Positions 1-14,108 of a stretch of 32,000 bases of DNA are shown here, one piece after another. How positions within the stretch are numbered: position 1 is the stretch's first letter; each line of letters opens with the position of its first letter. Below the pieces are notes generated by a model, which saw only the letters and a list, made by a program, of their open reading frames with translations, was not told the DNA's origin and made no database searches. The stretch spans positions 1 through 32,000 of the forward strand of contig CAKUIA010000003.1 in the NCBI GenBank assembly GCA_934660865.1. The letters are read 5' to 3'. A program made the position numbers and the translations under genes. Origin of the DNA: an uncultured Opitutales bacterium (GTDB taxonomy: Bacteria > Verrucomicrobiota > Verrucomicrobiia > Opitutales > Intestinicryptomonadaceae).

Positions 1-909
1 ATGTTTACCTGCAGCCTCGGCAAATCTTTAAAACGCTTTGCATAAAAACTGGCGTAGGTGTGCCGCAAAACGTCTTGCTCCCAACAACCACTAAAACCCG
101 AATCAGCGCGTATCTTGCGCCACCGACATACCCAATCTAGGGGACAAATATGCGAAGTGCTTTCTAGCTGGTGGGCAATTAAAAGTCTGTTTAATACGGG
201 AGGAATTTCAACTTGACGTACACCGCCAGTTTTCGAACACTGCGAACGAACCGTAATAATTTTTTCTTCGGTATCGATGTCGCGCCAAGTAAGGCGGCGC
301 ACTTCGCGCGGGCGTATTCCCGCATAAACTAAAAGGGCGACAACAATGGCATATTTAGGGCTTTCGCGTTGGGCGTTTTTTATTAGGCGTCTTATTTCAG
401 ATAGTTTTAAAGGTTGTATCTCTTTTTCTACAACTTTTTTGCGTTCTATTCGCTTAATCGGGTTTTTTGTCGCACCACTCGCGGCGAATTGCAAATTCAA
501 AAAAGGCATGCAACATAGCGCGCCCTTTGTTGTATTGGCTTGGGGTAGCAAACGCACAATTTAGCCACTCTTCACATTCCGATACACTAAACTCCGAAAA
601 ATTGCGCCTGGAAAGTTCGTGTTTGGTTTTAATCAGCCTATTTCCAATACAGCGAATGTCGCGTATAGAATCTGGGCGCAAATGCTGCTTGCTTTTTAAA
701 TACGTAACAAACCCGTCGGCAAAGCTCATTTCTTTAGTACGAATATTTCGCAAGCCAACTTCAATTACCTTTAAAACAAATTGCGCGTCGGTTAAATTGC
801 AGTTTTTGGGCTTTGCGTCCAAAATATTCCTGACAAACCTTGCCGAATCTAAAACCGAAACTTTCGTTTTCCCCAAAACTTCCTTAGCCAAATTTAATAT
901 AGTGTTCAT
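1..909 (-). pseudogene. Tyrosine recombinase (phage-type integrase), interrupted by a 1-nt frameshift in a homopolymer and cut off by the window start
   Basis: ORF 454..909 encodes the N-terminal SAM-like core-binding part (...SQYNKGRAMLHAFFEFAIRREWCDKK). I hand-translated the minus strand below 462 in the adjacent frame. It reads NPIKRIERKKVVEKEIQPLKLSEIRRLIKNAQRESPKYAIVVALLVYAGIRPREVRRLTWRDID...VLRHTYASFYAKRFKDLPRLQVNM. That is the catalytic domain with the box I Arg and the LRHT box II, and it runs off position 1. The two frames join at the T6 run 463..468 (A6 on the coding strand). Removing one A gives ...CDKNPIKRIE. Confidence 0.75.
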
Positions 910-1082
910 CGTATTATAAATACGAATGTCAAATATAAATTCAAAAGATTGTTTGAATTATTTGTAAGAAATAACTTACGCAAAATTTGCCGAACAGTTA
1001 GAACAGATTTAAAGGACAATTTTACATAACGCAAAACATATAATTTTATGCTTTTCAAAAGCTTGCAACAAAGCAAATGTCT

Positions 1083-1101
1083 ATAGTATTTATAATACTA
1101 T
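1083..1101 (+). promoter_or_regulatory. Candidate promoter/operator: 8-bp inverted repeat ATAGTATT-N3-AATACTAT overlapping a perfect TATAAT (1091..1096)
   Basis: Read directly. The TATAAT ends 20 nt before the ATG at 1117. I found no convincing -35 at 17 nt. Confidence 0.3.
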
Positions 1102-1116
1102 GGTTTCCCTCCTATT

Positions 1117-1884
1117 ATGAAACGGGAAATATCATATCCGGATTTTGAGCAGGGAAAGCTAAAGCAAATCAATGCTTTGATGAAGGAATGGAAGTCTTCA
1201 TTGCCGGAGAAAGAGCAAGAACTTTTCGTTTCAGACGGTTTTTATCCGTATTATTTTTCAAAGAAGCCCCGAATTTTGTTTGTAGCAAAAGAATCGACGG
1301 GAATGCTAGGGCTTGCATACACAGATACACTTTTCGACTGTTATAGAAACGAAAAACGCATAGGCGAAAAGAATATAAATCAATATAGATTTCATGCCAG
1401 AATGATGTATATGGCTTACGGAATTCTCAACAAAGAATCTACGTTTGAGGAATTCCAAGCCACTCCGTTTGCCTCGAAAATAGGCGATACGTTTGGGACT
1501 AAAGACGGCGTAAGTTTCGCCTTTATGAACATTTCAAAAAGCTCTAACGAAAACGGAACATATGCAAACGAAAAACTGATAGAGACTTCCTACACACACG
1601 GCAAAAAATTTATTAAGCGCGAAATAGAGCTGCTCGAACCAGATATAATAATTTCGGCAAATGTCACGGATAAAATTACAAACATCTTTGGAGAACCGAG
1701 CGTTTTGAAACGTATCGGCGGCAACAGCAAAGTATGCGACGTTTGCGCCCAAACAATAAAAGTAAACGCCAAAGACACGCTACTTTTGGATTGCTGGCAC
1801 TTTTCAAGTGTAAAAGGCAAAAAAGACTTTGAACACTTTTACCACCCAGTTTGTGAATTCACAAAAAAATACTTCAACCAATAA
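1117..1884 (+). CDS. Hypothetical cytoplasmic protein, 255 aa, with weak UDG-superfamily-like strand/motif order (function unproven)
   Basis: Long clean ORF with no TM segment. Blocks RILFVAKESTG, VSFAFMNISK, EPDIIISAN and LLLDCWHFSS follow the order and spacing of the four core strands of uracil-DNA-glycosylase-fold proteins. Both catalytic motifs are substituted. It is tightly coupled to the next gene. Confidence 0.6.
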   Translation: MKREISYPDFEQGKLKQINALMKEWKSSLPEKEQELFVSDGFYPYYFSKKPRILFVAKESTGMLGLAYTDTLFDCYRNEKRIGEKNINQYRFHARMMYMAYGILNKESTFEEFQATPFASKIGDTFGTKDGVSFAFMNISKSSNENGTYANEKLIETSYTHGKKFIKREIELLEPDIIISANVTDKITNIFGEPSVLKRIGGNSKVCDVCAQTIKVNAKDTLLLDCWHFSSVKGKKDFEHFYHPVCEFTKKYFNQ

Positions 1885-1893
1885 GGAATAAAT

Positions 1894-2256
1894 ATGGAAA
1901 AAGAATCAAACACTCCTAAACAAAACACACAAACTCCATCAACGGCTGATATGCAGTCGATGATGATGCAACAAATGATGCAACAGCAAATGATGCAGCA
2001 AAATGCAATGAATCAGCAGATGGTTAACCAGATGAAGGAAATGAATAATTCCGACAAAAGCAGGCTAACCTATATAATCATTGCTTTATTTTTGGGCGCG
2101 TGGGGAATCCATAACTTTTATGCAGGACATACCGGCAGAGGGATTATCCAGCTATTATTGGGCATAACAATGGTTGGCTGTTGTATAACAGTTCCGTGGT
2201 GCATTCTTGATATGATTTGTACCAAAAGAGACGGCGACGGAAAGAAAATGAGATAA
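1894..2256 (+). CDS. TM2 domain membrane protein with Q/M-rich N-terminal tail, 120 aa
   Basis: SRLTYIIIALFLGAWGIHNFYAGHTGRGIIQLLLGITMVGCCITVPWCILDMI matches the TM2-domain pattern of two TM helices (G.hGiHrFY.G....G). AAGGA lies 6 nt upstream of the ATG, which is 9 nt after the upstream stop. Confidence 0.8.
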   Translation: MEKESNTPKQNTQTPSTADMQSMMMQQMMQQQMMQQNAMNQQMVNQMKEMNNSDKSRLTYIIIALFLGAWGIHNFYAGHTGRGIIQLLLGITMVGCCITVPWCILDMICTKRDGDGKKMR

Positions 2257-2271
2257 AATAATATATAAATC

Positions 2272-2310
2272 AACGAATCAAATTGTAAATCGCAATTTGA
2301 TTCGTTTTTT
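2272..2310 (+). terminator. Rho-independent terminator closing the 1117..2256 two-gene unit
   Basis: Perfect 14-bp stem AACGAATCAAATTG (2272..2285) / CAATTTGATTCGTT (2293..2306) with a 7-nt loop, followed by a T-run to 2310. Confidence 0.85.
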
Positions 2311-2356
2311 GCGCAACTACTACAAAAAAATGAAGACATTATCATTGAAATAATTT

Positions 2357-3220
2357 ATGGAAAAATTAGCAAAAAATATACTCAAAGCCGTAAATTGTAT
2401 CCTATTGAGTTTAGGAGGACTTGTTGTTTTTTTTACATTGAGGACGTGTTTTTTTGAGAATATGTCGAATTCGGCAAATTCTTGTGCAAAAAGCAAAACG
2501 GAACGGGAAGAGCTATTGACAAGAATATGGGGCACAAAAATTGCTAAAGTTATTGTAGATGATAATGAAAGTTTATACCCTTATTTTACCACCGTTGGTG
2601 GATTATACGATTTAAGCGAATCTGACTGGGAAGCATTAATTTTAAGGGATCTCGTTTTTATGCAGTTATGGGAAAAAGTAAAAGCCAATGACGAGTATTG
2701 GCTTAATCGATTGCAAAATGATTACGGGAATTCAGTATCCGAATTTTGCCGAATAAGAGGAATTGACAGCATTCCTCCATATAAATTAATCAACGCACAA
2801 CCAAAATTTATTGATCTTTTTTATAATAACAAAGAATTGATAGATATAGCATCTGCAACCGCATCAACTCAATATGATATTTGCGCATTACTTCGCAGTT
2901 TATTTGTTCAAACTGCAGAAGGCTATAACTGGAAAGCGTTCAAACTTTTTGAAGATATTTTCAATTCTAGAGAAATTATAGGCGATAACATATACGAAGA
3001 ACAAATAAAAAACGAAGAATTGAACAAAGACAAATTCTTCACGGACGTAAAAAAATACGGGTATGCTTGCTATGCTTTTTTATATAAAAATGGAATTGTT
3101 GTAGAAAAAGATGAACAGAAATCGGCAGCATACGCAAAGTTTGCGTTGCCCTATCGTATTGTAGATAAAACCGGTTTTTTGGTTGGGGATAAAGCAGAGA
3201 TCAATAAATATCTAGAGTAG
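2357..3220 (+). CDS. Hypothetical N-terminally membrane-anchored protein, 287 aa, with one Sel1/TPR-like segment near the C-terminus
   Basis: Clean ORF in the AT-rich block with an N-terminal hydrophobic helix (ILLSLGGLVVFFTL). YGYACYAFLYKNGIVVEKDEQKSAAYAKFA resembles a Sel1-like repeat. It has no other recognisable motif and has its own terminator. Confidence 0.6.
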   Translation: MEKLAKNILKAVNCILLSLGGLVVFFTLRTCFFENMSNSANSCAKSKTEREELLTRIWGTKIAKVIVDDNESLYPYFTTVGGLYDLSESDWEALILRDLVFMQLWEKVKANDEYWLNRLQNDYGNSVSEFCRIRGIDSIPPYKLINAQPKFIDLFYNNKELIDIASATASTQYDICALLRSLFVQTAEGYNWKAFKLFEDIFNSREIIGDNIYEEQIKNEELNKDKFFTDVKKYGYACYAFLYKNGIVVEKDEQKSAAYAKFALPYRIVDKTGFLVGDKAEINKYLE

Positions 3221-3291
3221 ATAACTTTTTGTTATGCTCGGTTCAGCAGGGTGCCCATCTGGCGGGCTTCATCAATGGAATAAGCTTTAAA

Positions 3292-3334
3292 AATGCAAAA
3301 GAGCCTTTCGGGATTCGAAAGGCTCTTTTGCATT
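3292..3334 (+). terminator. Long hairpin / probable terminator downstream of 2357..3220
   Basis: An approx. 20-bp stem, AAATGCAAAAGAGCCTTTCG / CGAAAGGCTCTTTTGCATTT, around a 5-nt loop (3311..3315). The T-tail is short (TT only), so the call rests on stem strength and position. Confidence 0.55.
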
Positions 3335-3833
3335 GCTCGACGATAAGGTAAGATTTAAAGCTAATTTTTAGTTTGGCGGAAGAAGTGTTGCATTTTGGGA
3401 TTTGTAGGGTTGCGTTTTAGTGGGTAGGGTAGTGGCAAGCAACGGTTGTGTTATAAGTTTACTTGTAGTACTTTATTGAATTTAAGTTTGCATTTATGTG
3501 CTAAAATACGGAGCTAAATTATAGAGTAAAAGCGTTTGCAAAATGCGGGAGGGAAAGTGTAAAAAACAAATTATCAGAAACCCCATATTCTACAACTTTT
3601 AACGTTGAGGCGAGTTGTGGTTGCCGTGTTTGATAGTTTTTAATTTATGCGTGCTGTATGGGCGTTTTACGTTTGCTTTTTTTCGCCCATTTTTTGCCGA
3701 TTCATTTTCGGCAAATTAGCAAGGTTTTTAGAAGCGCGAATATTTAAGGCAAAACAAAAAATTGTTGTTCGGCAACGTGGTAATAAAAAACCTTTACCCA
3801 AAAACCAATTTGAAAAGCGGGCGGGAAAGTGGA

Positions 3834-3866
3834 CAATAAAAAAAGGACTTATTTTTATAAGTCCTT
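3834..3866 (-). terminator. Rho-independent terminator of tRNA-Lys
   Basis: The minus strand reads AAGGACTTA-loop-TAAGTCCTT followed by a T7 run. The stems are 3843..3851 and 3858..3866, 12 nt after the tRNA 3' end. Confidence 0.65.
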
Positions 3867-3877
3867 AATTGTTAATG

Positions 3878-3950
<73 letters not shown>

Positions 3951-3967: not shown

Positions 3968-3995
3968 ATAGTACTAATTGCGTTGCCTTATGCAA
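3968..3995 (-). promoter_or_regulatory. Candidate sigma-70 promoter for tRNA-Lys (TTGCAT-N16-TACTAT)
   Basis: The minus strand has -35 TTGCAT (3995..3990) and -10 TACTAT (3973..3968), 17 nt upstream of the mature 5' end. Confidence 0.3.
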
Positions 3996-4331
3996 GCAAA
4001 TTTTTAGAAAAAGTTATTTTTATTTTTTGTCTGCAAAAATTTTGCGCTTTTGCCCAGCCTTTGCCCAATTTTTTTGCAAAACAGTGTTTTTGCGGCGGGC
4101 GCGCAAAATATAGTATCTGCGGCAGGGTGCGGTGCGCAAAATGCCTTGTTTGGCGCAAATTTGCCGGCGCAAAAAGCTTTGTGCGTTTAACGACCGGCCA
4201 AAATTTGCGGGGTATTTGCACAAATTGGGCTTTAAAAAAATTCGCGCAAATTTGGCGCATATTGTGCGGGGAATATTTTATATAAATTTAAAGCTTTTAA
4301 AAAGCCGTTAATATACTAACATTTTTACGCA

Positions 4332-5129
4332 ATGAAACAATATTTGGATTTACTTGATTTTGTACTAAAAAACGGCTGCGAGCGCACCGACAGAACAAAG
4401 GTGGGCACAATAGGCGTATTCGGCGCACAGGCAAGGTTTGATTTGTCGAAATCGTTTCCTCTTTTAACCACAAAAAAGCTGCACACGCGCTCTATTTTAT
4501 ACGAGCTGCTTTGGTTCTTAAAGGGCGACACAAACGTGAAATATTTGCACGACCACAAAGTTACGATATGGGACGAGTGGGCCGACGAAAACGGCGATTT
4601 GGGCCGCATATACGGCGCGCAATGGACCGACTGGCGCACGCCCGACGGCAAAAGCATTAACCAAATTAAAAACGTTGTAGAATCGCTTAAGAACGACCCG
4701 TTTGGCCGCAGGCACATTGTGTGCGCATGGAACCCCGGCGAGCTTTCGAAAATGGCGCTGCCGCCTTGCCATGCAATGTTCCAGTTTTACGTTAACGCAA
4801 ACAAAGAGCTTAGCTGCCAGCTATACCAGCGCAGTGCCGACCTGTTTTTGGGCGTGCCTTTCAACATAGCTTCGTACGCGTTTTTAACGTATATGGTAGC
4901 CCAGGTTTGCGGATATAAGCCCAAAGAATTTGTGCACACTTTCGGCGACTTGCACATATACAAAAACCACATTCAGCAGGTTAAAGAGCAGCTAAGCCGC
5001 ACCCCGCGCGAGCTGCCCACCTTAAAGCTAAACCCCGAAAAGAAAAATCTTGAAGATTTCGATTTTGAAGATTTCAAGATAGAAGGGTATAACCCATACC
5101 CGACTATAAAGGCGCCCATAGCCGTCTAA
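4332..5129 (+). CDS. thyA: Thymidylate synthase (ThyA type)
   Basis: Full-length match to ThyA hallmarks: MKQYLDLL..., [47 protein letters not shown] (catalytic Cys), [18 protein letters not shown]. Confidence 0.97.
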
Positions 5130-6086: not shown

Positions 6087-7505
6087 ATGACAAGCAAAAA
6101 CCTTTTTACCGCATTTTTGTTTGCGCTTTCGGCGTTGCCGCTTTTTGCCATTCAGCGCAACTATTTTAAGCACCCCACCTACGATGTAGACAGCGAAATG
6201 CCGCTGCCTTACACGGCAATGTATAGCGACTATTACGACGATTTAGACGCCCCCAAGTGCCGTTTTTTTGAAGAGTGGTTTTCAAAAAGCGGGGCGTTCC
6301 CGTTCTTTTTCGACGAGCGCGCCAAGCTTGAAAGTTCGGGCATTGTTCCCGTTTTTACCTACATAGGCAACTTTGCGGGCAACCCCACCGGCGGCAGGGC
6401 AAGGGGCACGGGCATTTCAAATTCGTTTAACTTGGGCGTTGGCCTAGACATAGGCAAACTTAGCGGCAAAAAGGCGCTAAGCGGGTTAAGCCTTGGCAAC
6501 ACCTGGGCGTGGCGCTCGGGCGACAGCATAACCCCAAAATATTTGGGCAACACGTTTAGCGTTCAGCAAAACTACGGCTCGCAAACAATAAATTTACAGT
6601 CGCTGTTTTTGATGTACGAAAAGCCCGTTTTTGGCGACGAATATGTTTTTAGGCTTAAGCTTGGGCGCTTTGCCGCGGGCGACAATTTTATGGCAAAGCC
6701 CATATACTGGCTTTATATGAGCAATTCGGTAGACGGCAACCCCGTGGGCATGTTCTACCAAACAAAGCTTTCGGCATATCCTTCGGGCGTATGGGGCGCA
6801 TATTTGAATATAGAGCAAAAAGACGGCGCATACATAAAGGCGGGCGTATACCAAATTAACGACCCTTCGCAAGACGCAAATTCAAGGCACGGGCTAGACT
6901 GGTCTTTCGAAAAAAGCATTGGCGTAAACGCCAATTTTGAAATAGGCTGGGACATAAACCACGACGACAGCGGCAAATCTCCCGCAAACATTTCGGTGGG
7001 CATAATTTCGGATTGGTACAACGCCCCCCATAACGACAACCCAAACAAATATTCGTATTTTAACTGCAGCCTGTATTTTCAGGCCGACTATATGGTTTGG
7101 AATATGGGTATGCCCGAAAGGGAAAAAGCTTCGTATATAACGCGCGATACATCGAACGCCTACAGGGATTTGCGCGGCATTATTGCCTGGGCTGCAGTGC
7201 AATACGACCCTAACGAAAATCTGGCCTACATGCCCTTTTTTGCCTGCGGCGGTTTGCTGTTTAACGCCCCCTTTAAATCGCGCGCCGACGACGTTCTTTG
7301 CTTTGCCGTAGCCTACGGCAAATATTCCGACAAGCTGCTTGTTCCCGAAAAAGGCTCGTACGAAATGGTGCTAGAGCTAAACTACAAAATTCAGCTAAAC
7401 AAATTCCTGTTTTTGCAGCCCGACATTCAGTATATAATAAACACAAAGGGCGGGGCATACCCAAACGCCCTTGTTTTGGGCGCGCAGTTCGGCGTGGCGT
7501 TTTAG
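6087..7505 (+). CDS. Carbohydrate-selective porin, OprB family
   Basis: Signal peptide MTSKNLFTAFLFALSALPLFA. It has beta-barrel-like alternating sequence, FTYIGNFAGNPTGG, and the C-terminal LQPDIQYIINTKGG typical of OprB-family porins. The terminal residue is F. Confidence 0.85.
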   Translation: MTSKNLFTAFLFALSALPLFAIQRNYFKHPTYDVDSEMPLPYTAMYSDYYDDLDAPKCRFFEEWFSKSGAFPFFFDERAKLESSGIVPVFTYIGNFAGNPTGGRARGTGISNSFNLGVGLDIGKLSGKKALSGLSLGNTWAWRSGDSITPKYLGNTFSVQQNYGSQTINLQSLFLMYEKPVFGDEYVFRLKLGRFAAGDNFMAKPIYWLYMSNSVDGNPVGMFYQTKLSAYPSGVWGAYLNIEQKDGAYIKAGVYQINDPSQDANSRHGLDWSFEKSIGVNANFEIGWDINHDDSGKSPANISVGIISDWYNAPHNDNPNKYSYFNCSLYFQADYMVWNMGMPEREKASYITRDTSNAYRDLRGIIAWAAVQYDPNENLAYMPFFACGGLLFNAPFKSRADDVLCFAVAYGKYSDKLLVPEKGSYEMVLELNYKIQLNKFLFLQPDIQYIINTKGGAYPNALVLGAQFGVAF

Positions 7506-7557
7506 GTGTTATGTTTTATTTGGCTTTCAACGCAAAAATTTTTGCGTAAATATCGCA

Positions 7558-7596
7558 TAAAAAAAGCGAAGTTTGTTTTTTAACTTCGCTTTTTTG
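7558..7596. terminator. Bidirectional rho-independent terminator between the porin gene and the convergent lipoprotein gene
   Basis: Stem AGCGAAGTT (7565..7573) / AACTTCGCT (7582..7590), with an A-run on the 5' side and a T-run on the 3' side. Confidence 0.7.
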
Positions 7597-7729
7597 TGTG
7601 TTTGTAGTTTTTCGTTATTTAGACTGTCCGTTGCCGCCGAAAACATTTGCTATTGCGTTAAGATAGCCGTATTTGTGTGGTGTTTGTAGGCTGGCTGGAG
7701 GGTGTTGATTATCTTGAGCTTTCAAAAAA

Positions 7730-9814
7730 TTAAAGAGTTTTTGAATATCTTACATAATTGGTCAGAATTTCGTTAAATATAGAGGTTTTTCTGTCTACCA
7801 TTTGCTCTTTAAAATAGTCGCACAAATATTTATTTATTCTCACTTGTTGCGAAACGTCGTCTTTGGTAATGCTGTAGTAGTTATCGAAAGATTTGCTGTT
7901 TGCGGGGAACGTCGATTTTTGAAGGACATATATAATAAAAGCTCTTAGTTTTGCCTCGACGATTTTTTGATTGCCTTTTGCTTCGGGAAGAGAAGATATA
8001 AATTTTGTGTATCCTTGCGTGTAAAATCCGTTATTGCATGCATCTTTCGAACACCTGCTCAATACGGCAATCAACAAGTTGGCGTTATATTTGCAAATTG
8101 AACGGTATTCCGCTTGCTGTCTTTCGTATTCTTCCATAGTCATCGTTTGCCAAGCGGTATTTTTTAAAGTTTGTAGAGAAAGGAATTTTATGGGTATAAA
8201 TCTGTCGTAGCCCCGTGAATTTAAAAACATTGTGGCCTGTTCGTCCGAAAACGGCGAACGTTTCAAATCGGCGTTGCCTACAACAGCATTTAGGGAATCG
8301 TTAAAGATAATCTTTGTAAGCTTCGGGGTGGGCGGTTGCACTGAAATTGCACAAATATCTTTTATTTTTTCGTCTACCAAAAACGAATTTGAAGCTAGTG
8401 AAGTGAAATTCAAGTTGCTCGACTGTGCGTCTAAAGAAAACGCATAATTGTTTCTGAAAACATAGGCGCGGTTGTCGTATGCTCTTGTAGATGTTCCGTC
8501 AAGCATGTAGGCTACGCCGACTTTTGATATTCTCACGTCGAATAGCCTGTTCATATCAAGAAAATTGTTTTTTACGGGAAAAACGCATATGCCGCTAGAC
8601 GCATTCAATACCATAGATAAAGATGTATCGTCTGAAATTTTTTGCGCTTCGTCCAAATCCGGTATTTCGCCTATGTCTTCTGGCAAATTGTCTACTATAA
8701 ACCCGACAACCTTATATTTTTTATTTACTATCATTTTACTGCACGAAAGCGAAAGTGCGCTATTGTCGAACTTTGCGGGCAAAGAATCGGGTATAAGATA
8801 TTTATTGCCTAATATTACGGGTATTTTGTTTATCCTGCAAAGTATGCCTATTGTTGAACCGCCGCTACCGAAATCGCACTTAAATAGCACTTTGTTTAAA
8901 TCGTATTTCAGCTCGGTTTTATTGAACGCTGCTGGTGGCATTTTCTTTAGCTCTTCAAGCTGTTTTTCGAAATTGTCGGGGTATTTTTCCTGCAGCTGCT
9001 TTTTTACGTTTTCTACTTTTTCGTCTATTACATCGTATAACTTAAACTGCTTTAGTTCGGTATATTTGGAGCATAAATTGTTCAATTCTTCAAGGGCTTT
9101 GTTTGCGTCGCCCTGCGAGCGCGAAACGGCGGTTTGCTGTATTTTATTCCATACGGCGTCGTTATCTATTGCGGCGGAATTTCGGGAGCTAAAAAAGGCG
9201 CGCCATCTGTCGTAGTCGTCGGCCATTTGTTTAAAGTCGCTAATATTAAACTGCTTAAATACGTCGTCTATAAGCTTTCGCTCGGTTGGCGTTGCAGACT
9301 TTCTAAATTGATTATAGGTTATATAGCTTTGCCTGTTTACCTCAAAATAGTCCAGCTGGTTTACATAGTCGCCCTTGGCCTGCGTTTCGGAAAAGTTAAA
9401 AACTTTCATTTCCTCGAAACTTAGCGATTTTTTTATTTCGGCAAGTTTTAGATAGGCGGCAGCCTGCTCGTTAAACCAGGCTCGTTTCATTTCGGTATCG
9501 TAGTCTTGCCCCAGCTTTGAAAGGCCGTTTTTAAGATTGTTTAAAACTTCGGGCGGGAATTTTTGCTTTTGCTTGTGCGCAAAGTCGTTTATCAGCGAGG
9601 CGGCGGTTTCGGCAACCTTTTTTTTGATTGTTTCGCCGCTGTCTTTAACGGTGGTTTTTAAGTCGCGCTTGTCGGGTTTAGCTTCGTTTTGGTTTAAAAC
9701 TTCGTCGTAATAGTCGCGTTTTGGGTTATTGTTGCTTTTTTGCGGTTTGCTGCAGCCTGCCAGCAGCGCAAGCGCAAGAATACCAAGGCAAATAGAGGAT
9801 ATTTTCTTTGTCAT
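7730..9814 (-). CDS. Large orphan lipoprotein, 694 aa, function unknown
   Basis: Lipobox signal MTKKISSICLGILALALLAGC|SK. The first ~300 aa are K/E/Q-rich and helical. The middle is beta-rich with degenerate trypsin-like spacing (see findings). I recognise no family. Confidence 0.8.
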   Translation of the reverse strand: MTKKISSICLGILALALLAGCSKPQKSNNNPKRDYYDEVLNQNEAKPDKRDLKTTVKDSGETIKKKVAETAASLINDFAHKQKQKFPPEVLNNLKNGLSKLGQDYDTEMKRAWFNEQAAAYLKLAEIKKSLSFEEMKVFNFSETQAKGDYVNQLDYFEVNRQSYITYNQFRKSATPTERKLIDDVFKQFNISDFKQMADDYDRWRAFFSSRNSAAIDNDAVWNKIQQTAVSRSQGDANKALEELNNLCSKYTELKQFKLYDVIDEKVENVKKQLQEKYPDNFEKQLEELKKMPPAAFNKTELKYDLNKVLFKCDFGSGGSTIGILCRINKIPVILGNKYLIPDSLPAKFDNSALSLSCSKMIVNKKYKVVGFIVDNLPEDIGEIPDLDEAQKISDDTSLSMVLNASSGICVFPVKNNFLDMNRLFDVRISKVGVAYMLDGTSTRAYDNRAYVFRNNYAFSLDAQSSNLNFTSLASNSFLVDEKIKDICAISVQPPTPKLTKIIFNDSLNAVVGNADLKRSPFSDEQATMFLNSRGYDRFIPIKFLSLQTLKNTAWQTMTMEEYERQQAEYRSICKYNANLLIAVLSRCSKDACNNGFYTQGYTKFISSLPEAKGNQKIVEAKLRAFIIYVLQKSTFPANSKSFDNYYSITKDDVSQQVRINKYLCDYFKEQMVDRKTSIFNEILTNYVRYSKTL

Positions 9815-9912: not shown

Positions 9913-10251
9913 ATGAACTATATGCTTTTTATTGGCAAAAGGCTTAGGCTTTTGCGAAATGCCGCAGCTTTCACACAAGAGGCTTTTGCCGAAAAGCTAG
10001 GGCTTGACTACAAGTTTTACCAGGATTTGGAATCGGGGCGCAAAAAGTACATAAGGCTTGATACCATAGAGCGCATTGCCCAAAATTGCAAAATGCCCGT
10101 GTGGGAATTTTTAAAACCTCCCTCAAAAGATTTTGTAAAAGACTGTTTTGTTAGGGTTGCGGCCCCCGTGGGGCGCCCGAAAAAAGTAGAGGCGGCAAAA
10201 AAAGGCAATGGTTTTTGCAAAAAGCGCAAAAGCTGCAAGCGCGTAAAATAG
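9913..10251 (+). CDS. XRE-family helix-turn-helix regulator with a basic AT-hook-like tail
   Basis: IGKRLRLLRNAAAFTQEAFAEKLGLDYKFYQDLESGRK...LDTIERIAQ is a classic Cro/C1 HTH. The C-terminus is PVGRPKKVEAAKKG...KKRKSCKRVK. The start is uncertain: the track starts at GTG 9877, and I prefer ATG 9913 or 9922. Confidence 0.8.
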   Translation: MNYMLFIGKRLRLLRNAAAFTQEAFAEKLGLDYKFYQDLESGRKKYIRLDTIERIAQNCKMPVWEFLKPPSKDFVKDCFVRVAAPVGRPKKVEAAKKGNGFCKKRKSCKRVK

Positions 10252-10359
10252 TTGCCCGAAAAATTTTTGTTTGCAAAAAGCGCGCCAAGTTGATTGCCTA
10301 AAAGGCAAGGTTTTGTATATGTATATTATATAGGGCTTTTTTATGGAGGATTATTATAT

Positions 10360-12451: not shown

Positions 12452-12534
<83 letters not shown>

Positions 12535-12949
12535 TAAATCGCTTATTTTTAGCGTATTTAGCAATTTATTAAGTACTTGCGACATTGCTTTTTTGAAATC
12601 TCTTTGCCGTCTTTGCCGTTTTTTATGTAAAAATACGGCAAAAATTGCTTGAAATTCTGCAACACTTTTTGCAGTGCTTTTGCTACACTAAAAAGAACAA
12701 TTTTTTATTAGCGGCAAGTATCCAAAAATTAACAAAAAAAGCAAGCCATTTTTAGTAAGATGTCGAGATTTGGACGGAAAAATGTATATATCGGCAACAT
12801 TGGAAATCGGGTAGATGGGTTTTATCTTAAACCAGTGTTTTAACGAAATCTACAAGTTTGCAAAAGAGTAGTAGTTGCTTTATATACAATTTTGGAATAT
12901 CCATAGCAAATGTTGCTAACAGTAAAAAGACACAGTGTTTGTGTAAAAT

Positions 12950-12985
12950 AAAAGAGAGCGATGTTTAGCTACAATGCTCTCTTTT
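12950..12985 (-). terminator. Probable terminator of the toxin-antitoxin operon
   Basis: Starts 3 nt after the stop at 12988. Stem AAAGAGAGC/GCTCTCTTT (12976..12984 and 12951..12959), 16-nt loop, then a T-rich tail (TTTTATTTT) on the minus strand. The loop is large, hence moderate confidence. Confidence 0.5.
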
Positions 12986-12987
12986 TG

Positions 12988-13431
12988 TTAATCAATATTT
13001 GGCAGTAGATTTTTGATTTGCATAGAAACAGTTCTGCTATTTTTTACACATCTGATTACTTGTCGTAATGTATCTTTAGACAATGTTGCGTCTAGGCATT
13101 TTAATTCGTTGCAGTCAAATTTTTCTTTTATATATTTTACGTTAAAATATTTGACGTCGTTGCAGTTTATGTATGTAGGCTTTGAAAGAAATTTTTCGCT
13201 TCCCAATGAAATTTCCGCAATCGTATCAGCGCCATACATACTGCGCAACTGTGCAACGCGTTCTACTCTAGAAGAGGCAACCACAAGTGCGAAAGAGTCT
13301 CCATACGATGGATTGTCGTTTAATATTATTATATAGTGGGGCTCGTTGCTTGTTATGCTAGCTATATGCCCATAGAGCACGGAGCCACAACGCAATACTA
13401 CCTTTCTTAAGAGATTGAAGTTAGATGACAT
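12988..13431 (-). CDS. Putative toxin partner of the Panacea antitoxin, ~147 aa, family unassigned (possible MazF/PemK-like fold)
   Basis: Its ATG (13431..13429) is embedded in the antitoxin's last codons (GATGTCATCTAA), an 11-nt overlap that implies translational coupling. The block order GSVLYGHI / PHYIIILNDNP / FALVVASSR / PTYINCNDVKYFNVKYIKEKF / LSKDTLRQVIRCV parallels MazF/PemK strand order. This is inference only. The track start at 13458 is an alternative. Confidence 0.6.
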   Translation of the reverse strand: MSSNFNLLRKVVLRCGSVLYGHIASITSNEPHYIIILNDNPSYGDSFALVVASSRVERVAQLRSMYGADTIAEISLGSEKFLSKPTYINCNDVKYFNVKYIKEKFDCNELKCLDATLSKDTLRQVIRCVKNSRTVSMQIKNLLPNID

Positions 13432-14053
13432 CGTTGTGCTCTTTAAAAAAGTTATCAAATGATTCCGATTCGTCTATCATTTCCAAAATAACTTTTTTAT
13501 TCTCTTCGGACATATTAAAGCAGGGATTTAGCCCAGCTGGAGGCTCTTCCAAGAAGTCCCGAATATCCATAGGAATGGACGTTTTTTTTCCGTTTGGATT
13601 TTCGCTCGAAAGAATATCCTTTTCGTGTTTTTTCCACTCGGGATATTTGTGGGTTATGCTTACCAAATCAAAAGGTTTTTCCTTGCCGAATGTATCATAG
13701 GCAAATGATAACGCTTCAATATCGGACTCGGACAGAGCGGAAAAATCGATATCTTTTTTTATGAGCTTTAGCGTTTTCCCTCCGTTGGAAAGCTCAAGAA
13801 CATCGGAAGCAAATGCACAGGCATCTATCGGTAGCCAATCTTCGCTAATGTTTGCAACATTCAAAGTGTTCGACGCGACAGGGCCATAATTCATCGCTTT
13901 ATATGTATCACCCGATACGGTTCTACCGTATTTTCTTAGGTGGTATTTATCTGCAAAATACAATAGCTTTATGAGTAATATTTTACTAGTTTCGCAGTTG
14001 TATTTGCTGAGCAACCACGCCAAAATTTCAACAGCTTTTGTATAATCAAACAT
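13421..14053 (-). CDS. Panacea-domain (DUF4065, SocA/GepA-like) antitoxin, 210 aa
   Basis: ILLIKLLYFADKYHLRKYGRTVSGDTYKAMNYGPVASN and LSESDIEALSFAYDTFGKEKPFDLVSITHKYPEWKK match the DUF4065 signature (KLLYfa...G.pl..d.f.A...GPV ... tH...pW). The C-terminal extension is acidic. AAGGA lies 9 nt before the ATG. Confidence 0.8.
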   Translation of the reverse strand: MFDYTKAVEILAWLLSKYNCETSKILLIKLLYFADKYHLRKYGRTVSGDTYKAMNYGPVASNTLNVANISEDWLPIDACAFASDVLELSNGGKTLKLIKKDIDFSALSESDIEALSFAYDTFGKEKPFDLVSITHKYPEWKKHEKDILSSENPNGKKTSIPMDIRDFLEEPPAGLNPCFNMSEENKKVILEMIDESESFDNFFKEHNDVI

Positions 14054-14079
14054 TTATGAAAATCCTTTATATTGCCAGC

Positions 14080-14108
14080 ATTGTTTTTTACTGGGCTATT
14101 TTTGTCAA
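14080..14108 (-). promoter_or_regulatory. Candidate sigma-70 promoter of the antitoxin-toxin operon (TTGACA-N17-AACAAT)
   Basis: The minus strand has a perfect -35 TTGACA (14108..14103), a 17-nt spacer and a weak -10 AACAAT (14085..14080), about 26 nt upstream of the ATG. Confidence 0.35.

What the first reader, a model, noticed from the sequence alone, without database searches (positions are those of the whole stretch)
1083..2310. Self-contained two-gene operon: UDG-fold-like protein + Q/M-rich TM2 membrane protein (candidate undescribed system)
Seen: genes 1117..1884 and 1894..2256 are 9 nt apart, with an AAGGA overlapping the upstream stop. They are preceded by a TATAAT embedded in an inverted repeat and closed by a perfect 14-bp-stem terminator. 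This is an autonomous module on a mobile, AT-rich island. Protein 1 is cytoplasmic. It shows four hydrophobic blocks in the order and approximate spacing of the uracil-DNA-glycosylase superfamily core. RILFVAKESTG sits at the motif A position, VSFAFMNISK at the conserved Asn strand, EPDIIISAN next, and LLLDCWHFSS at the HPS motif B position. Both catalytic motifs are altered. Protein 2 is a TM2-domain two-helix membrane protein. Inference: a base- or nucleic-acid-recognising module coupled to a small membrane protein resembles the sensor-plus-membrane-effector logic of many two-gene antiphage or abortive-infection systems. DNA glycosylases are already known to act as antiphage effectors (Brig1). 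I know of no described system with this pairing.
Basis: partly seen in the sequence, partly recalled or inferred. Interest (0 to 1): 0.75.

Follow-up and report, generated by a model that had tools for sequence, protein, structure and literature searches.

The report
Unannotated UDG-fold glycosylase family gene
The first gene belongs to a rare, unnamed family with the uracil-DNA-glycosylase fold that probably cuts unusual bases out of DNA, perhaps phage DNA, while the small membrane-protein gene beside it is a local neighbour and not a required partner.

Summary
The sequence features are real. Two co-oriented genes lie 9 nt apart and end in a strong hairpin terminator, on an AT-rich island next to tRNA-Lys and a frameshifted tyrosine recombinase. 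Protein 2 is a TM2-domain protein.

Protein 1 matches no Pfam, NCBIfam, PHROG or PADLOC model. Its AlphaFold model (pLDDT 95) matches almost only UDG-superfamily structures: family-4 UDG, TDG/MUG and UdgX. Alignments place its near-invariant Glu59 and His228 on the motif A Glu and motif B His.

The "two-gene system" is not supported:
- The family has about 1,000 clusters, mostly in PVC bacteria and spirochaetes.
- None of 74 species-level loci has a TM2 gene within 10 kb.
- Only 1 of 213 members carries a membrane extension.
- In close relatives where the UDG-like gene has decayed to a remnant, TM2 is intact.

Across the family the gene sits in locally AT-rich DNA (−5.5 GC points, p≈1e-6). It often lies beside nucleic-acid or defence genes such as GmrSD, DEDDh exonuclease, AAA ATPases and WYL regulators.

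Best reading: an uncharacterised stand-alone DNA glycosylase, plausibly Brig-like antiphage. A co-varying inverted-repeat pair upstream suggests an invertible promoter, which remains unproven.

The parts
1..909 (-). Tyrosine recombinase gene, cut by the window edge and frameshifted near codon 150 at an A6/T6 run around 460-467. The ORFs are 454..909 and 3..467.
   Evidence: PHROG integrase hit, E = 7.5e-7. tblastn with the intact 331-aa orthologue from L089 (Pfam Phage_integrase) matches in two reading frames, in the window and in the separately assembled contig L001.
907..923 (.). IR1, the left arm of an inverted-repeat pair. It is itself a near-palindrome around an asymmetric central triplet (ATA) and abuts the recombinase start codon.
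   Evidence: the repeat finder pairs 907-923 with 1086-1102: 17 nt, 94% complementary, 162 nt apart. The same pair is present in L012, L089 and L140, with a lineage-specific central triplet that is always reverse-complementary between the two arms.
1086..1102 (.). IR2, the right arm of the pair.
   Evidence: The arms are conserved through compensatory changes (ATAGTAT/ATACTAT against ATCGTAT/ATACGAT). The central hexamer is not conserved.
1117..1884 (+). [quoted passage not shown] Candidate functional residues are Glu59 (motif A), Tyr68, Asn138 and His228 (motif B).
   Evidence: 71 homologous clusters, none with a Pfam domain. 1,014 cluster representatives in the exhaustive profile search. AF2 model pLDDT 95.4, pTM 0.93. 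Foldseek top hits are UDG-fold structures. Motif mapping. dN/dS about 0.10.
1883..1887 (+). AAGGA Shine-Dalgarno-like element for the TM2 gene, overlapping the protein 1 stop codon.
   Evidence: Read directly from the sequence. The 9-nt spacing is kept in L012 and L091 and in L148.
1894..2256 (+). Protein 2 (120 aa): a Gln/Met-rich N-terminal region followed by a TM2 domain with two transmembrane helices.
   Evidence: Pfam PF05154, E = 2.4e-12. PHROG families of unknown function, E down to 9e-15. dN/dS about 0.10, and 0.088 against genomes that lack a functional protein 1.
2272..2306 (+). Intrinsic-terminator-like hairpin (15 pairs, 5-nt loop) followed by a T run.
   Evidence: -17.5 kcal/mol, z = -5.1. 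Listed in the terminator scan. Compensatory changes in L140 and L144.
2357..3220 (+). 287-aa ORF with an N-terminal hydrophobic segment. It occupies the variable cargo slot, which holds an unrelated lipoprotein in relatives.
   Evidence: No Pfam, NCBIfam, PHROG, PADLOC or PDB hit. No similarity to the 458-933 aa third gene of L012, L089 and L090. Its 90% cluster has only 2 members.
3241..3329 (.). Conserved element of about 90 nt that closes the module in all relatives. It includes most of a 19-bp hairpin (about 3292..3334).
   Evidence: blastn shows 77-90% identity to L012, L089, L090 and L140-L145, although the cargo between TM2 and this element differs. The hairpin folds at -30.7 kcal/mol, z = -8.5. 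No Rfam match.
3877..3950 (-). tRNA-Lys (CTT), at the right edge of the AT-rich island.
   Evidence: ARAGORN, Rfam tRNA E = 6.9e-15, GC profile.

Best explanation

Shown: it has the UDG fold. It keeps a Glu at the motif A position, an Asn at the end of beta2 and a His at the motif B position. It is under purifying selection. Across the family it lies in locally AT-rich, horizontally acquired DNA.

Inferred: it is a catalytically active, stand-alone DNA glycosylase that flips out and excises a non-canonical base. Given its sporadic, island-borne distribution and its neighbours, the most plausible role is a Brig-like antiphage effector. Such an effector creates abasic sites in base-modified phage DNA.

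The TM2 gene is co-transcribed with it in one shallow lineage of gut Opitutales-like Verrucomicrobiota. It is an independent, separable neighbour and not an obligate effector. Expression of the pair may be controlled by a recombinase-flipped promoter segment between two inverted repeats. That step is unproven.
For: Fold:
- AF2 model pLDDT 95.4, pTM 0.93.
- Foldseek PDB: S. tokodaii family-4 UDG E = 6.5e-6 (TM 0.52/0.65), TDG 2e-5, UdgX 2.5e-3, MUG 1.7e-2.
- Phage UDGs and UDG domains of phage polymerases at about 1e-4.

Motifs:
- The HMMER profile aligns llldtWHFSa with vFPTYHPAA of 4zbx.
- hhalign against a Pfam-UDG family (A5) gives its best local match on beta1 plus motif A (KILFIGRES against LFVG-EAPG, pairwise E 1.4e-3 to 2.3e-3). 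The extended alignment is colinear and puts His228 on RHPS.
- E59, Y68, N138, K141, H228 and F229 are at least 90% conserved in 62 sequences; S140 is invariant.

Selection: dN/dS is 0.10-0.11.

Accessory or acquired character:
- Only 74 of 185,579 species genomes carry it.
- It has decayed to a remnant in L140-L145.
- There are tandem paralogues in L070 and L072.
- The gene is 5.5 GC points below distal flanks in 40 of 47 loci, p = 1.1e-6.
- In the window it sits on a recombinase and tRNA-Lys island.

Neighbours:
- A GmrSD type IV restriction enzyme lies directly upstream on the same strand in L016 and L065 (Pfam). A 748-aa ORF holds the same position in L020, and three immediate neighbours hit GmrSD_N in all.
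- DEDDh exonuclease, AAA ATPase, WYL, SIR2, Fic and IetA-like genes also recur.

Precedent: Brig1, Brig2 and Brig3 are UDG-superfamily antiphage glycosylases. Brig1's best structural match is the same S. tokodaii UDG. Brig2 homologues lie in A/T-rich, MGE-linked DNA. Brig3 has a dispensable operon partner (PMC11078745; bioRxiv 10.1101/2025.10.29.685425; 10.64898/2026.02.25.707755).

TM2 is separable:
- No TM2 ORF in any of 74 species loci.
- TM2 is intact next to the protein 1 remnant on contigs up to 774 kb.
- TM2 dN/dS there is 0.088.
Against: - There is no biochemical or phage data of any kind.
- The sequence-level link to UDGs is weak: hhalign probability 12-18%, no Pfam hit, and no detectable similarity to Brig1 (probability 0.2%).
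- Structural similarity is moderate (TM 0.5-0.65, rmsd about 5 A).
- Motif A lacks the Pro-Gly of known families. In the window's own subclade the consensus Gly-Arg before Glu59 is Ala-Lys.
- The Asn138 and Tyr68 assignments rest on topology, not on a confident alignment.
- No PADLOC model matches. Neighbours are heterogeneous, and I could not run a controlled defence-island enrichment test.
- Recurrent WYL, DEDDh and AAA neighbours would also fit a DNA-damage regulon.
- tRNA linkage is not a family trait (8 of 57 loci).
- The family is almost absent from plasmids, phages and viral contigs.
- The protein 1 to TM2 adjacency, with its 9-nt gap, is kept in at least 4 sublineages while the downstream cargo changes. 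Some functional link in that lineage therefore cannot be excluded.
- No flipped orientation of the inter-repeat segment was seen in 12 contigs.
Confidence: 0.45

Rival explanations
1. The two genes form a dedicated antiphage or abortive-infection system, in which the UDG-fold protein senses a base or nucleic acid and activates the TM2 protein as a membrane-disrupting effector.
For: The genes are 9 nt apart with a shared upstream region and a terminator. The adjacency and spacing are kept in L012 and L091 and L148, and adjacency holds in L089, L090 and L147 as well, while the downstream cargo varies. A 50%-identity relative (L013) still has the orthologous TM2 gene 1.1 kb away. Both genes diverge at similar rates with dN/dS about 0.1. 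One family member (P0150) is fused to a domain of 4-5 TM helices. TM2 proteins occur in phage protein families.
Against: None of 74 species-level family loci has a TM2 ORF within 10 kb, by HMM and by motif search. 212 of 213 family members have no membrane part. In L140-L145 protein 1 is reduced to about 60 codons with His228 changed to Arg, a stop and a frameshift, yet TM2 is intact, constrained and found on many long contigs. That is hard to reconcile with TM2 being either a toxin restrained by protein 1 or an effector that needs it. Neither protein matches a PADLOC model.
Confidence: 0.07
2. Protein 1 is a genome-maintenance enzyme. It would be a specialised, perhaps damage-inducible, repair glycosylase for an endogenous lesion such as a deaminated or oxidised base. 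It would work with the neighbouring exonuclease and ATPase genes, under WYL-type regulators.
For: It has the UDG fold with conserved Glu, Asn and His. A cluster of a 324-aa unknown, an AAA ATPase and a DEDDh 3'-5' exonuclease lies on the same strand in about 10 Verrucomicrobial loci, and WYL regulators occur in 8 loci. WYL regulators such as PafBC and DriD control DNA-damage responses (general knowledge). A canonical Pfam UDG lies directly upstream in L052, and a C-terminal FtsK-gamma-like DNA-binding domain is fused in P0159.
Against: It is far too sporadic for a repair function: 74 of 185,579 species. It is lost by decay within a lineage. It lies in AT-poor-to-host, acquired DNA and beside GmrSD, SIR2, Fic and IetA-like genes. 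In the window it sits on a recombinase-bearing island with no repair genes nearby.
Confidence: 0.2
3. Protein 1 keeps the UDG fold but is not a DNA glycosylase. It might be a non-catalytic binder of a modified base or of DNA, or it might act on another substrate such as RNA, a nucleotide or a DNA adduct.
For: Motif A (GRES; AKES in this window) lacks the Pro-Gly turn of all characterised families, and motif B has Phe in place of Pro. The family has a unique, nearly invariant N-terminal DGFYPYYF motif with no counterpart in known UDGs. There is no Pfam UDG hit. UdgX shows that UDG folds can evolve other chemistry, in its case covalent DNA cross-linking (PMC4787834, listed).
Against: The three positions that matter most in family-4 and family-1 enzymes (motif A acid, beta2 Asn, motif B His) are at least 90% conserved across distant phyla. 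A pseudo-enzyme would not need that. Brig1, with similarly unorthodox motifs, is an active glycosylase.
Confidence: 0.15
4. The genes form an envelope-related operon. Protein 1, TM2 and, in relatives, a large repeat-rich lipoprotein would work together at the membrane, with no link to DNA.
For: In L012, L089 and L090 a lipoprotein of 458-933 aa follows TM2 after 4 nt. The window instead has a membrane-anchored 287-aa ORF. L013 has TM2, a 178-aa protein and DUF805, another membrane protein, upstream of the protein 1 homologue.
Against: Protein 1 has no signal peptide or TM segment and a nucleic-acid enzyme fold. The third gene is variable and is absent in L140. Outside this lineage the family's neighbours are nucleic-acid enzymes, not envelope proteins.
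Confidence: 0.05

Closest known systems
Family-4 uracil-DNA glycosylase (UDGa; e.g. S. tokodaii 4zbx/4zby)
   Same: It is the best structural match (Foldseek E = 6.5e-6, TM 0.65 on the target). The order of beta1/motif A, Asn strand, beta3, hairpin and beta4/motif B is the same. The motif B His aligns, and the motif A Glu aligns with a Pfam UDG family that carries GEAPG.
   Different: Motif A is G-R-E-S (A-K-E-S here) and not GE[AG]PG. Motif B is H-F-S and not H-P-[SA]. No Cys is conserved, so there is no 4Fe-4S cluster. The protein has an extra N-terminal helical region of about 50 residues with an invariant DGFYPYYF motif. There is no Pfam PF03167 hit. Identity is 15-16%.
Brig1, Brig2 and Brig3 antiphage DNA glycosylases (UDG superfamily)
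   Same: All are UDG-fold proteins annotated as hypothetical. Brig1's best structural match is the same S. tokodaii UDG. They are sporadic and island-borne. Brig2 homologues are in A/T-rich, MGE-linked DNA, as this family is. Brig3 sits in a two-gene operon with a dispensable accessory gene. This is the closest functional analogy.
   Different: There is no detectable sequence similarity to Brig1 (hhalign probability 0.2%). The taxonomic range differs: PVC, Spirochaetes and Bacteroidales here, Actinobacteria for Brig1, and Pseudomonadota and Bacillota for Brig2. No defence phenotype has been tested for this family.
TDG/MUG (family 2) and UdgX
   Same: They are the next-best structural matches (TDG E = 2e-5, UdgX 2.5e-3, MUG 1.7e-2) and share the core fold.
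   Different: TDG and MUG have an Asn in motif A (GINPG) and lack the motif B His. UdgX has the KRRIH loop and GEQPG. This family has neither.
TM2 domain proteins (Pfam PF05154), for protein 2
   Same: Protein 2 is a full match above the gathering score, with two TM helices. Related small TM2 proteins occur in phage protein families of unknown function.
   Different: It has a Gln/Met-rich low-complexity N-terminal half. No function is established for bacterial TM2 proteins, and none is known as a defence effector (no PADLOC hit).
Invertible promoters (invertons) of gut bacteria, flipped by tyrosine or serine recombinases
   Same: Inverted repeats of 17-24 bp flank a segment of 139-162 bp directly upstream of the operon, next to a small (331 aa) tyrosine recombinase gene. 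The asymmetric core co-varies between the two arms across lineages. Gut Verrucomicrobia are reported to be rich in intergenic invertons.
   Different: Both orientations have not been observed: 12 contigs all show the same orientation. The recombinase is frameshifted in this window, and none is adjacent in L012 or L140. Each arm is itself palindromic, which would also fit paired operators.

Membership tests
Uracil-DNA glycosylase superfamily (fold level) | Alpha/beta/alpha sandwich with a central four-stranded parallel sheet, detected as significant structural similarity to solved UDG-fold enzymes. | tested here: met
Uracil-DNA glycosylase superfamily (fold level) | Motif A in the loop after beta1, carrying the water-activating or catalytic residue. 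| tested here: inconclusive
   hhalign puts KILFIGRES on LFVG-EAPG, so Glu59 falls on the motif A Glu. The probability is only 12-18%, with pairwise E 1.4e-3 to 2.3e-3. Glu59 is at least 90% conserved. The motif string itself (GRES) matches no described family.
Uracil-DNA glycosylase superfamily (fold level) | Motif B (HPS-like) after beta4, with the leaving-group-stabilising His. | tested here: met
   Two independent alignments put His228 on the motif B His: WHFSa on YHPAA of 4zbx and on RHPS of the Pfam UDG family A5. H228 and F229 are at least 90% conserved. The variant string is H-F-S.
Uracil-DNA glycosylase superfamily (fold level) | Sequence match to the Pfam UDG model PF03167. | tested here: not met
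   No Pfam hit at E <= 1 apart from a spurious CagA_N match. None of the 71 homologue clusters carries a precomputed Pfam domain.
Uracil-DNA glycosylase superfamily (fold level) | N-glycosidic bond cleavage on DNA. | not testable with these tools
   This needs purified protein and substrate oligonucleotides.
Family-4 UDG (UDGa) | GE[AG]PG motif A and four Cys ligands of a 4Fe-4S cluster. | tested here: not met
   The consensus is G-R-E-S, and no Cys is among the invariant or at-least-90% conserved columns.
Brig1 family | Detectable sequence homology to Brig1. | tested here: not met
   hhalign of the family profile against the published Brig1 sequence gives probability 0.2% over 4 aligned columns. 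The sequence was taken from the machine-read supplement PDF of PMC11078745 and may contain small reading errors.
Brig-type antiphage glycosylases (functional class) | Protection against phages with modified bases through base excision. | not testable with these tools
   Only context could be examined: AT-rich acquired DNA, GmrSD and other defence-type neighbours, and a sporadic distribution.
Brig2 and Brig3 families | Sequence or structural homology to Brig2 or Brig3. | not tested
No Brig3 entry appeared among the top 50 Foldseek PDB hits.
TM2 domain family (protein 2) | Pfam PF05154 match above the gathering score, with two TM helices. | tested here: met
   47.3 bits against a cut-off of 27.9, E = 2.4e-12, residues 54-99.
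Conserved two-gene defence system (UDG-like plus TM2) | The two genes co-occur across the phylogenetic range of either family. | tested here: not met
   No TM2 ORF in 74 species loci. Adjacency holds only in relatives of at least 84% identity, plus one rearranged 50% relative. TM2 stands alone next to a protein 1 pseudogene in L140-L145.
Known defence systems (PADLOC-DB v2) | Match to any PADLOC protein model. | tested here: not met
   No hit at E <= 1 for protein 1, protein 2, the 287-aa ORF or the recombinase fragment.
Inverton (invertible promoter) | Inverted-repeat pair flanking a short intergenic segment, next to a site-specific recombinase gene. | tested here: met
   In this window the recombinase is frameshifted.
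Inverton (invertible promoter) | Both orientations of the segment observed in sequence data. | tested here: not met
   All 12 contigs that cover the segment have the same orientation within their lineage. Read-level data were not available, so this is weak negative evidence.

The most novel reading that the evidence does not exclude
The family is a fourth, sequence-independent lineage of UDG-fold antiphage glycosylases. It would be specific for a phage base modification not covered by Brig1, Brig2 or Brig3, and would be spread by horizontal transfer mainly among PVC bacteria and spirochaetes. In this gut Opitutales lineage its expression would be phase-variable through a recombinase-flipped promoter. 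That would make it a bet-hedged DNA-glycosylase defence, with the co-transcribed TM2 protein possibly acting as a second, independent barrier.
Probability: 0.2. Interest if true: 0.65.

Novelty: new variant of a known kind. Interest (0 to 1): 0.42.

Why it matters
UDG-fold enzymes that attack modified phage DNA (Brig1, Brig2, Brig3) were recognised only from 2024 onwards, and each was found by function or by structure because sequence searches miss them. This family is another branch of the UDG superfamily that is invisible to sequence-based annotation.

- It has about 1,000 clusters.
- It has its own motif set: DGFYPYYF, G-R-E-S, FMNISKxSN and W-H-F-S.
- It sits in acquired AT-rich DNA, next to a GmrSD type IV restriction enzyme in at least two species.
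- It is concentrated in poorly studied phyla, including gut Verrucomicrobia and Treponema.

If it is an active glycosylase, its substrate would say which modified bases the phages of those phyla use. It would also add a defined family to defence-gene catalogues.

The negative result matters too. A tight two-gene operon on an island looked like a "system", but comparative data show the pairing is a local accident of one lineage.

Tried and rejected
- **Protein 1 against HMM libraries.** Pfam, NCBIfam, PHROGs and PADLOC gave no usable hit.
- **Protein 1 against PDB sequences.** phmmer found nothing. The family profile's best PDB hit was a 27-residue match of DGFYPyYf to the cell-wall-binding domain of the phage endolysin PlyP35 (E = 0.03). 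I judged it a chance local match. It is not a UDG fold and lies outside the catalytic core.
- **Brig1 membership.** Rejected by hhalign. Brig2 and Brig3 sequences could not be obtained.
- **A wasted search.** Seeding a family-4 UDG alignment with the 66-residue S. tokodaii fragment returned a single 90-aa fragment. A canonical UDG next to the family member in L052 served as the seed instead.
- **Sigma-70 promoter at TATAAT.** Not above chance, and not conserved.
- **tRNA linkage as a family trait.** Rejected: 8 of 57 loci.
- **Plasmid or phage carriage.** No tblastn hit in 72,556 plasmid or 50,697 phage records, and only 3 loci in 2.9 million viral contigs.
- **Membrane association as a family trait.** Rejected: 1 of 213 members.
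- **Inverted orientation of the inter-repeat segment.** Not found in any contig.
- **Known RNA families in the island.** Rfam found only the tRNA.
- **Host.** I first assumed a Bacteroidales host. I corrected this to Opitutales-like Verrucomicrobiota, from the name on the ThyA cluster and from gene content.


Full report
**1. What is in the sequence**

An AAGGA at 1883..1887 overlaps the first stop codon.

Downstream, 2272..2306 folds into a 15-pair hairpin (14 Watson-Crick pairs plus one G-U) at -17.5 kcal/mol, z = -5.1 against shuffles, followed by a T run. The hairpin is kept in a diverged relative through compensatory substitutions.

Upstream, TATAAT (1091..1096) does lie inside a palindrome. 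As a promoter it is unconvincing for three reasons. No -35 box lies at a proper spacing. The region has fewer sigma-70-like sites than shuffled sequence, 10 against 12.6. The hexamer is replaced by TTGGAA in L012 while the palindrome arms are conserved.

The stretch 1..3876 has GC 0.372 against 0.470 for the rest of the window. It ends at tRNA-Lys(CTT), 3877..3950(-). It begins with a tyrosine recombinase gene on the minus strand, which is cut by the window edge and frameshifted near codon 150. The separately assembled contig L001 shows the same frameshift, and the orthologue in L089 and L148 is an intact 331-aa gene.

The host is probably an Opitutales-like member of the Verrucomicrobiota. 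The 90%-identity cluster of the window's thymidylate synthase carries that name, and the window encodes an OprB porin, sigma-54, SecA, GlnS and Lnt.

**2. Protein 2**

Protein 2 is a TM2-domain protein (Pfam PF05154, E = 2.4e-12, above threshold). It also matches several PHROG families of unknown function.

**3. Protein 1 has the UDG fold**

Protein 1 matches nothing in Pfam, NCBIfam, PHROGs, PADLOC or PDB sequences. It is nevertheless a real family.
- There are 71 clusters at 90% identity, all "hypothetical" and without Pfam domains.
- The exhaustive profile search of 1.84 billion representatives found 1,014 at E <= 1e-3 and 239 at E <= 1e-30.
- The 62-sequence alignment shows sharply conserved blocks: DGFYPYYFSQK, ILFIGRES, SFAFMNISKxSNES, LEPDIIIxMN and LLLDxWHFSA.

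An AlphaFold2 model built from that alignment is very confident (pLDDT 95.4, pTM 0.93). Foldseek against the PDB returns family-4 UDG from S. tokodaii first (E = 6.5e-6, TM 0.52/0.65). Human TDG follows at 2e-5, UdgX at 2.5e-3 and E. coli MUG at 1.7e-2. Every hit down to E = 1e-3 is a UDG-fold enzyme. The viral structure library gives phage UDGs and the UDG domains of phage DNA polymerases.

**4. Catalytic motifs**

The family profile aligns llldtWHFSa with vFPTYHPAA of 4zbx, which puts the near-invariant His228 on the motif B histidine.

By chance, the gene directly upstream of the family member in L052 is a canonical Pfam UDG with VGEAPG and RHPS. I aligned its family (A5) and compared profiles.
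- The best local match is beta1 plus motif A, KILFIGRES against LFVG-EAPG. The pairwise E is 1.4e-3 to 2.3e-3 and the probability 12-18%.
- The extended alignment is colinear over the whole domain. It again puts His228 on RHPS and LEPDIII on beta3.

So the motif strings are altered (G-R-E-S, or A-K-E-S in this window, and H-F-S). The Glu, the His, Asn138 at the end of beta2 and an aromatic residue nine positions after the Glu (Tyr68) are all at least 90% conserved.

The Asn and Tyr assignments are inferences from topology, not confident alignments. No Cys is conserved, so the protein is not a family-4 enzyme with an iron-sulfur cluster. It is also not detectably related to Brig1 by sequence (hhalign probability 0.2%).

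**5. Is TM2 a conserved partner? No**

I fetched 74 loci from 185,579 species-representative genomes. They come from Verrucomicrobia, Lentisphaerae, Planctomycetes, Kiritimatiellia, Spirochaetes, Bacteroidales and a few Gammaproteobacteria, and the best identity to the window is only 45%. A further 48 loci came from metagenomes.

A TM2 HMM and a TM2 motif search over all ORFs found TM2 genes only beside the window's closest relatives.
- In L012, L089, L090, L091, L147 and L148 (84-89% identical) the order is protein 1 then TM2, and the 9-nt gap is kept in L012, L091 and L148. In L012, L089, L090 and L091 a third gene follows after 4 nt. It is a repeat-rich lipoprotein of 458-933 aa, unrelated to the window's 287-aa ORF.
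- In L013 (50% identical) the orthologous TM2 gene lies 1.1 kb upstream, separated by two other genes.
- In L140-L145 a TM2 protein from the same 90% cluster sits in a housekeeping context on contigs up to 774 kb. DNA homology to the window starts inside protein 1, at window position 1714. Only about 60 terminal codons survive there, with His228 changed to Arg, a stop (DCWRF*) and a frameshift. TM2 and its terminator are intact.

dN/dS is about 0.10 for both genes, and 0.088 for TM2 between the window and those genomes. Only 1 of 213 family members has a membrane extension and none is TM2-like. Each gene therefore persists without the other. The pairing is a feature of one shallow lineage, not a system.

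**6. What the family's context says**

No neighbour is universal. The 132 immediate neighbours at the 74 species loci include AAA ATPases (6), RNase_T/DEDDh exonucleases (4), GmrSD (3), SIR2, Fic, RHS, WYL and IetA-like proteins (2 each).

In about 10 Verrucomicrobial species the gene follows a same-strand cluster of a 324-aa unknown, an AAA ATPase and a DEDDh exonuclease. In L016 and L065 a GmrSD type IV restriction enzyme lies directly upstream of it, 19-107 nt away. L020 has a 748-aa ORF in the same position. WYL regulators occur in 8 loci, and six Treponema loci have a 94-aa Cys-rich ORF 7-19 nt upstream.

Quantitatively, the gene is 5.5 GC points below the distal flanks of its own locus in 40 of 47 loci (p = 1.1e-6). 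With 1 kb on either side the drop is 3.8 points in 44 of 47 loci (p = 2.4e-10). Control windows average +1.3. That is a family-wide signature of acquired DNA.

Some expected links are missing. tRNA genes are not enriched nearby (8 of 57 loci). The family is absent from annotated plasmids and phages and almost absent from viral contigs.

**7. Comparison with what is known**

Brig1 (PMC11078745), Brig2 (bioRxiv 10.1101/2025.10.29.685425) and Brig3 (bioRxiv 10.64898/2026.02.25.707755) are UDG-superfamily antiphage glycosylases.
- Brig1's best structural match is the same S. tokodaii UDG.
- Brig2 homologues lie in A/T-rich, MGE-linked DNA. The same study found 11 further untested clusters of UDG-like proteins in integrons.
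- Brig3 sits in a two-gene operon with a dispensable accessory enzyme.

The present family resembles these in fold, genomic behaviour and neighbours. It is not a sequence relative of Brig1 and could not be compared with Brig2 or Brig3. I therefore class it as a new variant of a known kind: a distinct, unannotated UDG-superfamily family with its own motif set.

Its most likely function is excision of a non-canonical base, and antiphage defence is the most plausible biological role. A specialised repair role is the main rival. It is supported by the WYL, DEDDh and AAA neighbours and weakened by the sporadic distribution, the acquired-DNA signature and gene decay.

**8. An unexpected regulatory feature**

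The pair brackets the 162-nt segment between the recombinase start codon and protein 1.

The same pair exists in L012 (24 nt, 100%), L089 (18 nt, 100%) and L140 (24 nt, 92%), with 139-162 nt between the arms. Each arm is itself a palindrome around an asymmetric central triplet. That triplet differs between lineages (ATA/TAT, CCA/TGG, TAG/CTA) but is always reverse-complementary between the two arms. The inner segment has diverged to about 60% identity, while the flanking genes are 83-88% identical.

This is what recombinase core sites flanking an invertible promoter would look like. Gut Verrucomicrobia are reported to be rich in intergenic invertons. However, all 12 contigs I could examine show the same orientation. 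The recombinase is frameshifted here, and paired operators remain possible. I report this as unexplained but promising.

**9. Verdict**

The finding is of moderate interest as a candidate new family of defence-type DNA glycosylases. Every functional statement awaits biochemistry and phage assays.

Noticed in passing
window 907-923 and 1086-1102; also L012 6735-6758/6898-6921, L089 4643-4660/4811-4828, L140 4564-4587/4730-4753: Inverted-repeat pair (17-24 nt) flanking the 139-162 nt segment upstream of the operon. Each arm is palindromic around an asymmetric triplet that differs between lineages but is always reverse-complementary between the two arms. It is a candidate invertible promoter or a pair of operators. 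No flipped form was seen in 12 contigs. Two Logan contigs (L002, L147) end at or within about 10 nt of the inner edge of the left arm.
   Followed up: partly
window 1-909 (-), frameshift near 460-467: The tyrosine recombinase next to the operon is frameshifted at an A6/T6 run, both in the window and in the separately assembled contig L001. The orthologue is an intact 331-aa gene in L089 and L148.
   Followed up: yes
L140-L145, about 4790-4975 (homologous to window 1714-1884): In a set of related genomes the UDG-like gene is an internally deleted pseudogene. About 60 codons are left, with His228 changed to Arg, a stop and a frameshift. The upstream repeat pair, the TM2 gene and the terminator are all kept, in a housekeeping context (GH106/adh_short on one side, alpha-amylase and succinate dehydrogenase on the other).
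   Followed up: yes
window 3241-3329 (hairpin about 3292-3334): Element of about 90 nt with a 19-bp hairpin (-30.7 kcal/mol). It is conserved at 77-90% downstream of the module in every relative, although the gene between TM2 and the element differs or is absent. It may mark the right end of the mobile module or be a shared terminator. There is no Rfam match.
   Followed up: partly
L089 5986-8787, L090 1381-4050, L012 8084-9460: In close relatives the slot after TM2 holds a lipoprotein of 458-933 aa with a lipobox (LAGC) and many repeats of about 28 aa. It has no Pfam hit, varies in length and starts 4 nt after TM2. The window has an unrelated 287-aa ORF there.
   Followed up: partly
L016, L019, L020, L025, L031, L043, L048, L065 (upstream of the match at about 10001): Recurrent same-strand cluster in Verrucomicrobia: a 324-aa protein with no Pfam hit, an AAA ATPase of about 377 aa and a DEDDh/RNase_T exonuclease of about 165 aa. 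In L016 and L065 a GmrSD type IV restriction enzyme follows (L020 has a 748-aa ORF in the same position), and then the UDG-like gene. It is a possible multi-gene unit and does not match any complete PADLOC system.
   Followed up: partly
L052 9304-9957 (+), 44 nt upstream of the family member at 10001-10759: A canonical Pfam UDG (PF03167; VGEAPG ... RHPS) lies directly upstream of, and on the same strand as, the family member in a Bacteroidales MAG. Two different UDG-fold genes sit side by side.
   Followed up: partly
L024 3751-4038, L064 9692-9976, L073/L075 9689-9973, L076 2258-2542: A conserved Cys-rich ORF of 94-95 aa (C..HP...C..CG, zinc-ribbon-like) lies 7-19 nt upstream of the family member in Treponema and other spirochaete loci. 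It is a likely operon partner in that lineage, with no significant Pfam hit. A sixth copy lies 2.4 kb downstream of the family member in the Verrucomicrobiales locus L031 (7478-7762).
   Followed up: no
L070 2506-3309 and 4452-5288; L072 4493-5296 and 6439-7275; protein P0211: Two paralogous family members lie about 1.1 kb apart, separated by an ankyrin-repeat gene, in two Akkermansia MAGs. One 578-aa protein (P0211) is a tandem duplication of the whole domain.
   Followed up: no
proteins P0150, P0159, P0129, P0221, P0108: Domain fusions occur in the family. P0150 has an N-terminal domain of 4-5 TM helices. P0159 has a C-terminal FtsK-gamma-like winged helix (weak Pfam hit). P0129 and P0221 share an N-terminal domain of about 150 aa that starts MN(V/Y)W. 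I suspect it is a PUA/EVE-like reader of modified bases, but I could not test that.
   Followed up: partly
window 7500-9800 and 12500-14100: Two further low-GC patches (0.34-0.40). The first holds a 694-aa ORF (7730..9814, -) with no Pfam hit and only marginal PDB hits. The second lies beside tRNA-Leu (12452..12534, -) and holds ORFs 12988..13458(-) and 13421..14053(-), which have no PDB match. They are possibly further acquired islets.
   Followed up: partly
window 3990-4280: The intergenic region between tRNA-Lys and thyA carries at least five copies of GCGCAAA (or TTTGCGC on the other strand), seen when reading the sequence. Their meaning is unknown.
   Followed up: no
protein 1 residues 38-64 (window 1228-1308): The family's invariant DGFYPYYF-K-ILF stretch has a 27-residue local match (E = 0.03) to the C-terminal end of the cell-wall-binding domain of the Listeria phage endolysin PlyP35 (6s4s). 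It is probably chance.
   Followed up: partly
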